From Leptogorgia sarmentosa (Eukaryota): a DNA stretch of 64,000 nt. A model generated the notes under the pieces. The model did no database searches and was not told the DNA's origin. It saw only the letters and a program-made list of their open reading frames with translations. Of the stretch, positions 62,269-64,000 are shown piece after piece (position 1 is the first letter of the stretch; each line of letters starts with the position of its first letter). The position numbers and the translations under genes were made by a program. The stretch spans positions 2,852,001 to 2,916,000 of the forward strand of contig OZ210884.1 in assembly GCA_964658305.1 (NCBI GenBank), written 5' to 3'.

Positions 62269-64000
62269 TTAACGCCTTCTCTTTTCCACAAGAAGAGCCT
62301 GAGATGCTGGGCCTTGCATTAATGCTGCGTAGGTGACCACACTAGCTGGTATTATGCCAGGTACATTGAAAATTAACCTAGCATGGGGGAGAGAAATCCT
62401 GTCCAGATTGATTTGAAATACGTCATGCATTCCCGCGACAGCGTTCACTCCTGGAATATGGTTTCCAAATCGGCTCAATTTCCCCCCCTCATTTACCCAG
62501 CCTTCCGGGTCGATTGTTTCATGACCTTGAGTACCAACGTTGTTTGCTCCTTCGATAGGCATTGCTGATTCAGATTTTACTTGGGCTGGACCTCCTGGTT
62601 TCCAGTCTACATCGTATCGAACGACAGAGTTGTAAAGATGGCGAGCAGATGCTGTTATTCCTGACAATAGCAAGCCGTCCTTGAATTTTCCGCCACTAAC
62701 TGCTGTTGAAACACCGCCAACAAGCGCCTCAGTCGCAACCCTTTCCAGGTTCCATGTACTCCCAAAAAAACCTCCAACACCTCCGGACATAGCTCCTCCA
62801 AATGCAGACTGCAGACCCCCCTTGAAAGAATTTGAAGCGATTGCTCCGCCAACGAATCCTGAAGCAGCACCGGCTAAAGCTTGAGACACTACCGCTGCTG
62901 TCGTTCCCATTAAACCCGCTGATGTAACAAGACTTGCGAATACAGGTGTGGCTGCTCCCATCGTTAGCACAGAAGCTGAAATGGCCAAAACTGGTCTCCA
63001 AATCTTTTTCAAAAAACCTCCGATTTTATTAACAATGTAGCCAGTGGGATCTTTGTGTTTTAGTGGGTTGTTCAGTGTGTAGCTGTAGCGATTGTAATTT
63101 TGTGTATTGTAAGGGTCTTGAATGTTAGGATCCGGGCTGAGGAACCTACCTACAACCGGGTCATAGATGCGACCGTTCATGTGAATTAGCAACAGATCCT
63201 CTAAGTGCTCGTGCCCGGTAAAACCACGATTGGTATACTTCGAAGCAGGTTCAGGCGCCTGCACACAATCTTGGAATTTTGCCCAGTCCATTGATCTCTT
63301 TCTTCCATATGCGTTATATCTTAATGACTCCACAATTTCTCCGCGGTCGTTGCTGACTGTGTCCACCGAATCCAATAAATCGCCATGCAGGTAGTTAGTA
63401 AAAGAATGCAATTCTGAGTCAGCTGTTCGAACTTCGGAATCGATAGCTACCAATCTTCCTAAAGCGTAGATGAAATACCTTTGCGTGGTTTTTCTTGGAA
63501 ACGGGGACAGTGTCGTTGTCTTTTCGTACAACTTGCCAATATAAGTGACGCTTTCAGCGTCGCTAGATTTTTTTACGCGACGGTGTTCTGCATCATACAC
63601 AAATTCAACAGTTCCCACGGACTTGGACGTTATAGTACTTGGTTTATTAAAAGTTGTCCAGGTGATTGTGTCGCTATCCTTTCGTATAACATTTCCATTC
63701 GCATCGTAATCGTAGGTGTGTGGACCAGCTTTTAAAAGCGCATGTGGCCTTTTGTTGCCATATTGAAAGTGCGAGCCTCCGAATCCACTATACCTGACAA
63801 TGTTACCTATGCTATCGTACTCCCAGTCTTCCGAAAAGGCAGCCTTTTTTCTCGGTTGCACACTGCTTATTGTTGCCCGAGTGATCCTGTCAAGGGCGTC
63901 AAAAGAGAACGTTTCCAATGTTTGCCAGGCTTCCGCCATGTCCGTTCTCGAGACAACATTACCAACAGCGTCGTAGCTATATTCCCAATGTCGCTTTTCC
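62269..64000 (-). CDS. rhs: Rhs/YD-repeat protein with RHS-associated core and C-terminal putative toxin tip (5'-truncated by window edge)
   Basis: Frame stays open past the listed ATG to base 64000 (EKRHWEYSYDAVGNVVSRTD). YD repeats (YDSIGN, YDANGN, YDAEHRR); core motifs RGFTGHE, HMNGRIYDPVVGRFLSPDP, NRYSYTLNNPLKHKDPTG; followed by an Ala/Gly-rich hydrophobic region and a C-terminal tip. No introns over more than 1.7 kb. Confidence 0.93.
   Translation of the reverse strand, partial: EKRHWEYSYDAVGNVVSRTDMAEAWQTLETFSFDALDRITRATISSVQPRKKAAFSEDWEYDSIGNIVRYSGFGGSHFQYGNKRPHALLKAGPHTYDYDANGNVIRKDSDTITWTTFNKPSTITSKSVGTVEFVYDAEHRRVKKSSDAESVTYIGKLYEKTTTLSPFPRKTTQRYFIYALGRLVAIDSEVRTADSELHSFTNYLHGDLLDSVDTVSNDRGEIVESLRYNAYGRKRSMDWAKFQDCVQAPEPASKYTNRGFTGHEHLEDLLLIHMNGRIYDPVVGRFLSPDPNIQDPYNTQNYNRYSYTLNNPLKHKDPTGYIVNKIGGFLKKIWRPVLAISASVLTMGAATPVFASLVTSAGLMGTTAAVVSQALAGAASGFVGGAIASNSFKGGLQSAFGGAMSGGVGGFFGSTWNLERVATEALVGGVSTAVSGGKFKDGLLLSGITASARHLYNSVVRYDVDWKPGGPAQVKSESAMPIEGANNVGTQGHETIDPEGWVNEGGKLSRFGNHIPGVNAVAGMHDVFQINLDRISLPHARLIFNVPGIIPASVVTYAALMQGPASQALLVEKRRR

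What the first reader, a model, noticed from the sequence alone, without database searches (positions are those of the whole stretch)
62269..64000. Intronless bacterial-type Rhs polymorphic-toxin gene inside an animal locus
Seen: a complete RHS-associated core with the PxxxxDPxG autocleavage motif (PLKHKDPTG), no introns over more than 1.7 kb and visibly higher GC than the neighbouring intron-rich DNA, with AT-rich non-coding sequence directly after the stop. Known: Rhs proteins encapsulate a C-terminal toxin in bacteria; the well-known animal YD-shell proteins are teneurins, whose sequence differs from this bacterial-style core. Inference: a horizontally acquired, domesticated toxin-delivery gene, or else a chimeric join with symbiont DNA.
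Basis: partly seen in the sequence, partly recalled or inferred. Interest (0 to 1): 0.82.

Follow-up and report, generated by a model that had tools for sequence, protein, structure and literature searches.

The report
Marine animals' borrowed bacterial toxin capsule
This is a real animal gene, shared with sea anemones, a tube worm, a ribbon worm and a lamp shell, that likely came from bacteria and is predicted to encode a secreted protein capsule that cuts loose one fixed membrane-seeking payload, likely a toxin aimed at bacterial cell envelopes.

Summary
Real, and not a chimeric join. Window 62269-63999 (-) is the last 576 codons of an Rhs/YD-shell gene with an intact autoprotease motif. One contig joins it to a host pentraxin exon; 6 of 7 runs laid, from three studies, bridge its stop codon. 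GC3 and codon use are host-like. Near-identical database proteins extend it to at least 1853 aa; relatives of about 1980 aa with signal-peptide-like start, SpvB, FG-GAP and RHS domains occur in two anemones, Owenia, Tubulanus and Lingula and form one clade against bacteria. It is neither teneurin nor mosquito SGS. It is not polymorphic in animals: all carry one 256-aa cargo, a Gly-rich helical module plus an unclassified His-Asp tip. In bacteria that tip is followed by a lipoprotein gene in 11 of 12 loci, which points to a target outside the cytoplasm; the animal locus lacks it. Likely a domesticated envelope-acting toxin in a self-opening capsule; function, expression and host phylum are untested or unknown. 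Ten literature searches listed no description.

The parts
62269..64000 (-). 3' 576 codons plus stop of a large Rhs/YD-shell gene; open at the window end (about 1,400 further codons expected beyond the window)
   Evidence: P0124 (1853 aa) differs at 1 of 576 residues over this part; full-length relatives 1981-1993 aa
63319..63999 (-). Distal YD/RHS repeats of the shell (residues 1-227)
   Evidence: Pfam RHS_repeat E 2.8e-5, TIGR01643 E 4.3e-7; aligns to solved Rhs chain 7q97_A, E 9.4e-4
63040..63318 (-). RHS-associated core, predicted aspartyl autoprotease plug: Arg277/Arg285, Asp290 and Asp317 (PLKHKDPTG, 63066-63040); predicted cut just after it
   Evidence: TIGR03696 residues 228-320, E 6.4e-19; positions; the same residues align in 7q97; catalytic rule from PMC9935623 passages
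62620..63039 (-). Cargo part 1 (cargo residues 1-140): basic amphipathic start, then Gly/Ala/Ser-rich uncharged helices, predicted membrane-inserting module; shared in bacteria with several different tips
   Evidence: 48% G/A/S over cargo 15-135, no charged residue between 16 and 72, KD19 up to 1.5; helices in model; best fold matches Tim17/Tim22/NDUFA11 type, Z 7.3, rmsd 2.8, 81 aligned, weak; other tips behind it in L020 (Lipase_3) and L022 (DUF4329)
62272..62619 (-). Cargo part 2, the tip (cargo residues 141-256): family not in Pfam or NCBIfam, with conserved Glu184, His205-Asp206 (62427-62422), Arg221, Asn225; predicted catalytic or binding centre
   Evidence: His205 and Asp206 in 62 of 63 rows, Asn225 60, Glu184 57; model pLDDT 92; no family
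60324..62268 (.). AT-rich non-coding spacer behind the stop; no immunity-like gene; ATTAAA 168 nt after the stop is a possible poly(A) signal
   Evidence: GC 36.1%; three ATG frames of 40 aa or more on the gene's strand, 418, 987 and 1513 nt after the stop; lipoprotein profile finds nothing in the window better than E 0.38
59859..60323 (+). Neighbour: last exon of a host pentraxin/LamG-domain gene, convergent with the Rhs gene; anchors it to animal DNA
   Evidence: Pfam Pentaxin E 8.8e-8; same contig as the Rhs frame in run X1, 59687-63077

Best explanation
This is the 3' end of a genuine animal gene of an old family, likely taken from bacteria, that is predicted to encode a secreted single-chain toxin capsule carrying one fixed, likely envelope-acting payload used against bacteria. 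Shown: host linkage, host-like codon use, an animal clade, domain order in relatives (hydrophobic N-terminus, SpvB, FG-GAP repeats, TcdB-middle, RHS repeats, core, cargo), intact protease motif, fixed cargo, lipoprotein gene behind the same tip in bacteria and none here. Inferred steps: (1) secretion through a signal peptide; (2) folding into a closed TcB-TcC-like shell around the 256-aa cargo; (3) self-cleavage after DPTG by Asp290/Asp317; (4) release, binding of the basic amphipathic start and insertion of the Gly-rich helices into a target membrane; (5) action of the His-Asp tip on a membrane lipid or envelope precursor from the outer side of the cytoplasmic membrane; (6) the animal needs no immunity gene because the target is bacterial and the shell shields the cargo in transit.
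For: Host linkage: X1 contig 59687-63077 holds the pentraxin exon and the Rhs frame; X4, X5, X6, X8, X9 contigs bridge the stop with 38 or more letters on each side. The named hits that rank first are all animals: Actinostola 65%, Owenia 64%, Exaiptasia 57%, Tubulanus 49%, Lingula 48%, on contigs of 0.2-37 Mb; the best named bacterium is 37%. One clade against bacteria: SH-aLRT 100 (35 rows x 919 columns) and 100/99 (17 rows). Domain order fits the SpvB plus propeller export class of PMC3482391 (passages). Protease residues are present; teneurins lack the last Asp (PMC9935623 passages). Tip identity to P0001 is 52-67% in the five named animals, core 46-65%. 11 of 12 bacterial loci with this tip (E under 1e-10) have a lipobox gene starting within 20 nt of the stop; 9 are a small two-Cys family, 2 near-identical ones are Sel1-repeat lipoproteins. 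Lipoprotein immunity marks toxins active in the periplasm (PMC13133936 passages). The same Gly-rich module carries lipase or DUF4329 tips in other bacteria, so the tip is the exchangeable toxin slot.
Against: No activity, cleavage, secretion or expression was shown. The signal peptide and SpvB domain are seen only in orthologues; P0124 lacks the N-terminus and its TcdB-middle hit is below the Pfam cut-off. One of 12 bacterial loci (L005) keeps the tip without a lipoprotein gene. Lipoprotein genes also follow 5 of 16 loci with other tips, so they go with the Gly-rich module in general. A tip active from outside a membrane could equally hit eukaryotic cells, and MACPF-like genes lie in the same window. 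Both known animal Rhs derivatives, teneurin and SGS1, have non-antibacterial roles. The tree does not follow species relations and the bacterial sample was limited to top hits, so donor and number of transfers are open.
Confidence: 0.5

Rival explanations
1. Same capsule, but the payload is aimed at eukaryotic membranes (prey, predators, competitors, parasites): a venom or mucus toxin.
For: Named carriers include two sea anemones and a nemertean, groups known for venoms or toxic mucus (recalled). The cargo is membrane-seeking. Two MACPF-like genes lie in the window (E 0.008 and 0.025, below cut-off). TcB-TcC shells of Tc toxins deliver to insect cells (PMC4612132 passage). L005 carries the tip without a lipoprotein gene.
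Against: 11 of 12 bacterial loci pair the tip with a lipoprotein gene, the pattern of toxins aimed at other bacteria. Owenia and Lingula are not known as venomous (recalled). None of the 20 cnidarian venom and omics papers listed holds 'rhs' (listing only).
Confidence: 0.24
2. Non-toxic co-option, as in teneurins: the shell and FG-GAP propeller serve adhesion, matrix or signalling and the cargo is a membrane anchor or released signal.
For: Precedent: teneurins derive from a whole bacterial polymorphic toxin and lost the active site (PMC3417536 passage). Fixed cargo and no immunity gene in the animal.
Against: The tip's His-Asp, Glu, Arg and Asn are kept in animals and bacteria alike; the protease Asp that teneurins lack is kept; no EGF or NHL domains were added; the patchy spread fits defence genes better than core developmental genes (inference).
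Confidence: 0.18
3. The gene travels between animals, on its own or on a mobile element or virus, and is a passenger rather than a long-domesticated host gene.
For: Owenia (annelid) sits inside the anemone-containing clade at 100/100, and a clade Owenia+Tubulanus+Lingula is rejected with bacteria as outgroup, p-AU 1.85e-58, LG+G4. Long intron-free coding region.
Against: No transposase or viral gene among the ORFs examined on the side that the window shows; host-like codon use; ancient duplication with differential loss explains the tree as well. The other flank is outside the window.
Confidence: 0.05
4. Assembly chimera with symbiont DNA.
For: Bacterial-type domains; GC above the flanks; the gene lies at the window edge; X1 depth steps from 107 to 170 at about 63050.
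Against: Contigs from three studies bridge the stop into AT-rich non-coding DNA, one reaches a host exon; the nearest named relatives are animal genes on large scaffolds; no operon partner follows.
Confidence: 0.03

Closest known systems
Bacterial SpvB/beta-propeller (TcdB/TcaC-type) Rhs polymorphic toxins, PMC3482391
   Same: Signal peptide, SpvB, FG-GAP propeller, RHS repeats, core with DPxG, C-terminal cargo; the same tip occurs in gammaproteobacterial and other proteins at 40-52% identity.
   Different: Animal chromosome, host codon use, probable 5' intron, one fixed cargo, no immunity gene.
Mosquito salivary SGS1 (PMC9935623)
   Same: Animal, secreted, bacterial-derived Rhs/YD shell with an intact autoprotease and about 230-256 aa of predicted membrane helices after the cut.
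   Different: SGS1 is 3364 aa with receptor domains and a Tox-SGS tail; no such Pfam hit here; no SGS1 hit in the PDB sequence search at E 0.001; this family is marine, in several phyla, and keeps a tip shared with immunity-paired bacterial toxins.
Teneurins
   Same: YD shell of bacterial origin in animals; UniRef labels the Exaiptasia protein 'Teneurin-like YD-shell domain-containing'.
   Different: No EGF, NHL or teneurin intracellular domain and no GHH tail in Pfam scans; the last catalytic Asp is present; signal-peptide-like start instead of a type II membrane anchor.
Tc (ABC) toxin TcB-TcC cocoon
   Same: SpvB, TcdB-middle and RHS domains in one chain, autoprotease plug.
   Different: No TcA injector among the ORFs examined in the window (genome not held); the cargo carries its own hydrophobic helices; no match to a Tc enzyme cargo.
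Periplasm-acting antibacterial effectors with lipoprotein immunity (e.g. Tle1-Tli1, PMC13133936)
   Same: Membrane-associated toxin part; lipoprotein gene directly behind in the bacterial relatives.
   Different: No sequence family match to lipases for this tip; delivery by an Rhs shell with a signal peptide, not a type VI needle.

Membership tests
Rhs/YD polymorphic toxin | YD/RHS repeats | tested here: met
   window part; P0124, E 9.2e-27
Rhs/YD polymorphic toxin | RHS-associated core with Arg, two Asp and PxxxxDPxG | tested here: met
   TIGR03696 above cut-off; residues and positions
Rhs/YD polymorphic toxin | Exchangeable, hypervariable C-terminal toxin | tested here: not met
   Same tip in all 5 named animal relatives, 52-67% identity, like the core; exchange is seen only among bacterial relatives
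Rhs/YD polymorphic toxin | Cognate immunity gene directly downstream | tested here: not met
   Non-coding spacer; lipoprotein profile has no window hit better than E 0.38; present in 11 of 12 bacterial loci
Rhs/YD polymorphic toxin | Self-cleavage and toxicity of the released cargo | not testable with these tools
   needs protein and growth assays
SpvB/beta-propeller (TcdB/TcaC-type) export class | Signal peptide followed by SpvB domain | tested here: inconclusive
   Met in orthologues P0133, P0005, P0010 (SpvB above cut-off; hydrophobic N-termini); this gene's own N-terminus is outside the window and missing from P0124
SpvB/beta-propeller (TcdB/TcaC-type) export class | Integrin-like (FG-GAP) propeller before the RHS repeats | tested here: met
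   P0124, 1 mismatch in 576 to the window protein: FG-GAP_3 E 5.6e-28
Tc (ABC) toxin complex | TcA injector subunit in the same genome | not testable with these tools
   No genome held for this window
Teneurin | EGF repeats, NHL propeller, intracellular N-terminal domain, GHH tail | tested here: not met
   No such Pfam hit at E 0.01 in P0124, P0133, P0005, P0010
Teneurin | Loss of the last catalytic Asp of the core | tested here: not met
   Asp317 present; rule from PMC9935623
Teneurin | Clusters with teneurins in a tree | not tested
   No teneurin sequence was returned by the searches, so none was in the trees
Mosquito SGS proteins | Tox-SGS tail and receptor domains | tested here: not met
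   No such Pfam hit; the protein ends 256 aa after the core
Tim17/Tim22/NDUFA11 fold | Structural match of the Gly-rich helices | tested here: inconclusive
   Top five VIA-align rows, Z 6.2-7.3, rmsd 2.7-3.3, 74-85 aligned; below the Z 8 to 13 that the tool asks of helical bundles

The most novel reading that the evidence does not exclude
A third independent domestication of a bacterial Rhs capsule in animals, and the first that keeps a working interbacterial toxin: marine invertebrates of four phyla secrete a self-opening shell that delivers an unclassified His-Asp envelope enzyme to bacteria, and the gene has also jumped between animal phyla (anemone lineage and Owenia).
Probability: 0.3. 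Interest if true: 0.9.

Novelty: new variant of a known kind. Interest (0 to 1): 0.76.

Why it matters
Animals are known to have tamed Rhs/YD shells twice, as teneurins (adhesion) and mosquito SGS proteins (saliva). This family is a separate case that keeps the whole bacterial layout, the protease motif and a payload whose bacterial twins come with an apparent immunity lipoprotein. It offers a testable model of how microbe-rich marine invertebrates could police their microbiota with a borrowed 220-kDa weapon, an unclassified toxin tip with a new lipoprotein partner family, and a gene tree that suggests either deep hidden paralogy or transfer between animal phyla. Exaiptasia and Owenia are laboratory animals with genomes, so the test is within reach. 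Present database names (WapA nuclease, teneurin-like, insecticide toxin) mislead.

Tried and rejected
No whole genome is held, so the 5' end, the other flank, copy number and a TcA partner could not be read. The metagenome scan for this gene's own longer contigs gave 3 distant bacterial-type loci only. No RNA holder is listed among 17 runs; X8, X9 and X10 (kind not on record) hold pieces of the frame and at most 125 nt of 3' flank and show no cover at 60503-62005, which looks like transcript contigs but is not counted as evidence. Host phylum: a homologue search with the last Wnt exon found nothing at E 1e-10 and the Atlas gave no usable hit for a repeated host exon; the host is an animal (Wnt, fn3, pentraxin exons; GT donors) but unidentified. 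Fold searches for the cargo and for the tip alone gave no clear match: Foldseek PDB none at E 0.001, BFVD none, VIA-align best Z 7.3 and 5.6; this does not show a new fold. Atlas feature hits for the cargo were all under 0.9. The first clade test was uninformative because it had no outgroup; the mixture-model test did not finish; the LG+G4 test on 17 of the 35 rows did. In the short-core tree the P0018 stretch was cut wrongly and three long branches were present, so searches are used. L012, L013 and L019 show a His-Asp stretch by eye but score E 1.6, 0.31 and 0.012 with the tip profile and are not counted as the same tip. DUF637 (E 0.005-0.04, below cut-off) was not taken as a family assignment. 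Four look-ups of earlier findings returned nothing. GC excess as a sign of recent transfer: rejected.

Full report
Observation. The minus strand is open from 63999 to a TAA at 62271-62269: 576 codons. It holds YD/RHS repeats and a complete RHS-associated core (TIGR03696, residues 228-320, E 6.4e-19) ending in PLKHKDPTG at 63066-63040, followed by 256 residues. The frame is 46.3% GC against 36.1% for the spacer behind it, but GC3 (41.7%) lies within the range of 15 host exon pieces (26.9-46.3%) and codon usage correlates 0.71 with them, against -0.48 to 0.49 with seven bacterial homologue genes.

Host gene or chimera. The window is animal DNA: three Wnt exons at 54.9-56.7 kb, an fn3 exon, and a pentraxin exon at 59859-60323. 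No genome is held, so public contigs were laid on the junction. In run X1, which may be the window's source, a single 3394-base contig runs from 59687 to 63077, through the pentraxin exon, the spacer and 800 bases of the Rhs frame. Of the 7 runs laid, 6 have a listed contig that bridges the stop: X4 61532-62451, X5 61713-62312, X6 61659-62306 (study P2), X8 62144-62384 (P3), X1 and X9 62192-62418 (P1); X10 has none listed. Only X1 reaches a host exon in one piece. Behind the stop there is non-coding DNA, not an operon.

The whole protein and its family. Searching proteins of 1009-2880 aa gave 2326 hits among 7985 candidates scored, 120 listed. The first is 99% identical; its cluster holds P0124, 1853 aa, differing at 1 of 576 residues over the window part. 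The best named hits are Actinostola (65%), Owenia (64%), Exaiptasia (57%), Tubulanus (49%) and Lingula (48%), on contigs of 0.2 to 37 Mb; the best named bacterium is 37%. The full-length animal proteins are 1981-1993 aa (the Actinostola model is longer through an added domain) with a hydrophobic N-terminus, SpvB, FG-GAP repeats, TcdB middle/N-terminal and RHS repeats, and no EGF, NHL or GHH domains. [quoted passage not shown] Contig-called frames of this sub-group (P0003, P0124, P0006, P0007) and an alternative Exaiptasia model (P0008) all begin at or after one Arg-Cys position about 83 codons in, two of them leaving the alignment exactly there; I infer an intron near the 5' end, not seen in DNA.

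Tree. On 919 columns of shell and core, 35 selected rows, the window-like protein, the five named animals, five unnamed animal-like proteins, one EukProt protein (P0018) and its unnamed sister P0135 form one side of a branch against 15 named bacteria and 7 unnamed rows (SH-aLRT 100; 100/99 with 17 rows). The family is vast on the bacterial side (74,872 representatives at E 0.001), so bacteria-to-eukaryote transfer is the plain reading, but no donor is resolved and the bacterial sample was limited to top hits. Inside the clade Owenia groups with the window protein and the anemones (100/100); holding Owenia, Tubulanus and Lingula together is rejected (p-AU 1.85e-58, LG+G4; the group is a standard taxon but was tested after the tree was seen). 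Old duplication with losses or transfer between animals would both give this.

The cargo. It is not polymorphic in animals: tip identity to the window protein is 52-67% in the five named animals, core identity 46-65%. AlphaFold2 gives a confident all-helical model (pLDDT 88.4, pTM 0.83; tip alone 92.1). Residues 1-16 are basic and amphipathic; 16-72 carry no charge and 15-135 are 48% Gly/Ala/Ser. The best fold matches of this half are Tim17/Tim22/NDUFA11-type membrane helices (Z 7.3, rmsd 2.8, 81 aligned; weak). The tip (141-256) belongs to no Pfam or NCBIfam family and keeps His205 and Asp206 in 62 of 63 aligned rows, Asn225 in 60, Arg221 in 58 and Glu184 in 57, which suggests a catalytic or binding centre rather than a plain pore (inference).

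What the bacterial neighbours say. Nine are a small two-cysteine lipoprotein family unknown to Pfam, two near-identical loci have a Sel1-repeat lipoprotein; L005 has none. In the other 16 loci the same Gly-rich module is followed by different tips, among them a Lipase_3 and a DUF4329 domain, and 5 of 16 have a lipoprotein next. Immunity genes lie directly downstream of polymorphic toxins (PMC3417536, passage), and lipoprotein immunity marks toxins that act in the periplasm (PMC13133936, passages). So in bacteria the tip fills the exchangeable toxin slot and likely acts outside the cytoplasm; binding of lipoprotein to tip is inferred from gene order alone. A profile of the nine lipoproteins finds nothing in the window better than E 0.38.

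Mechanism. Shown: linkage, family, domain order in relatives, protease residues (Arg277/Arg285, Asp290, Asp317, aligned with solved Rhs 7q97; teneurins lack the last Asp, PMC9935623 passages), fixed cargo, loss of the partner gene. Inferred: secretion, encapsulation, self-cleavage after DPTG, membrane insertion through the Gly-rich helices, and attack on a lipid or envelope precursor by the His-Asp tip. I put 0.5 on an antibacterial role, 0.24 on a toxin against eukaryotic cells, 0.18 on non-toxic co-option, 0.05 on a mobile passenger and 0.03 on an artefact. That the gene is a true animal gene with this architecture is about 0.95.

Comparison and novelty. It works like a bacterial SpvB-type Rhs toxin and, among animal proteins, most like mosquito SGS1, whose shell holds about 230 aa of predicted membrane helices after an autoprotease site (PMC9935623: outline, section 8 and passages). 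It is not a member of the polymorphic toxin systems in the strict sense (no variable tip, no immunity gene), nor a teneurin or SGS. The proteins are in databases under automatic names. Ten paper searches were run; their listings and abstract starts showed teneurin, SGS1 and bacterial papers but no description of this family; five papers were read in passages only (PMC3482391, PMC9935623, PMC3417536, PMC4612132, PMC13133936), no supplements, and subscription journals are largely outside the library, so a mention in a genome paper's HGT table is not excluded. Verdict: new variant of a known kind, interest 0.76.

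Noticed in passing
window 1648-3591 (-) and 8431-10292 (+): Two similar multi-exon genes in divergent orientation with weak MACPF hits (E 0.008 and 0.025, below cut-off) and GT donors: likely pore-forming-type proteins 52-60 kb from the Rhs gene.
   Followed up: partly
window 16867-33089 (+): Five similar exons of about 90-105 codons repeat in tandem; no convincing Pfam family and no Atlas hit.
   Followed up: partly
window 54854-56717 (-): Three Wnt exons (Pfam E 1.6e-11, 5.3e-19, 8.7e-38); subfamily not determined.
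   Followed up: partly
window about 55350-55610 and 58965-59290: Two related high-copy interspersed repeats: very high summed depth and many loose ends in all three runs.
   Followed up: no
window 63048-64000: In X1 the contig depth rises from 107 to 170 here; P0002 and P0124 differ at 26 of 1529 residues, 20 of them in one 450-residue stretch; P0255 is an 83% relative on a 329-kb contig. A second copy or divergent alleles may exist.
   Followed up: no
L001, L004, L006-L010, L016, L018 (e.g. L008:8515-8829): A small lipoprotein family (91-113 aa, two conserved Cys) directly behind the tip, unknown to Pfam and NCBIfam: candidate new immunity family.
   Followed up: partly
L010:999-1340: A Bathymodiolus symbiont Rhs gene has such a lipoprotein gene starting 1 nt after its stop, whereas PMC4612132 (passage) found no identifiable immunity gene beside symbiont YD genes; that paper's proteome table also lists YD proteins under Host_EST identifiers.
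   Followed up: no
L005:8609-8650: A Chromatiales Rhs with the same tip has no lipoprotein gene behind it; the next gene follows directly.
   Followed up: no
P0018, P0135: A EukProt protein and an unnamed sister fall inside the eukaryote-type clade with the same cargo and Pro/Ser/Thr-rich inserts: the family may extend to non-animal eukaryotes.
   Followed up: partly
P0004: The Actinostola model continues into an unrelated domain (PF05721) after the cargo, likely a gene-model fusion with the neighbour.
   Followed up: no
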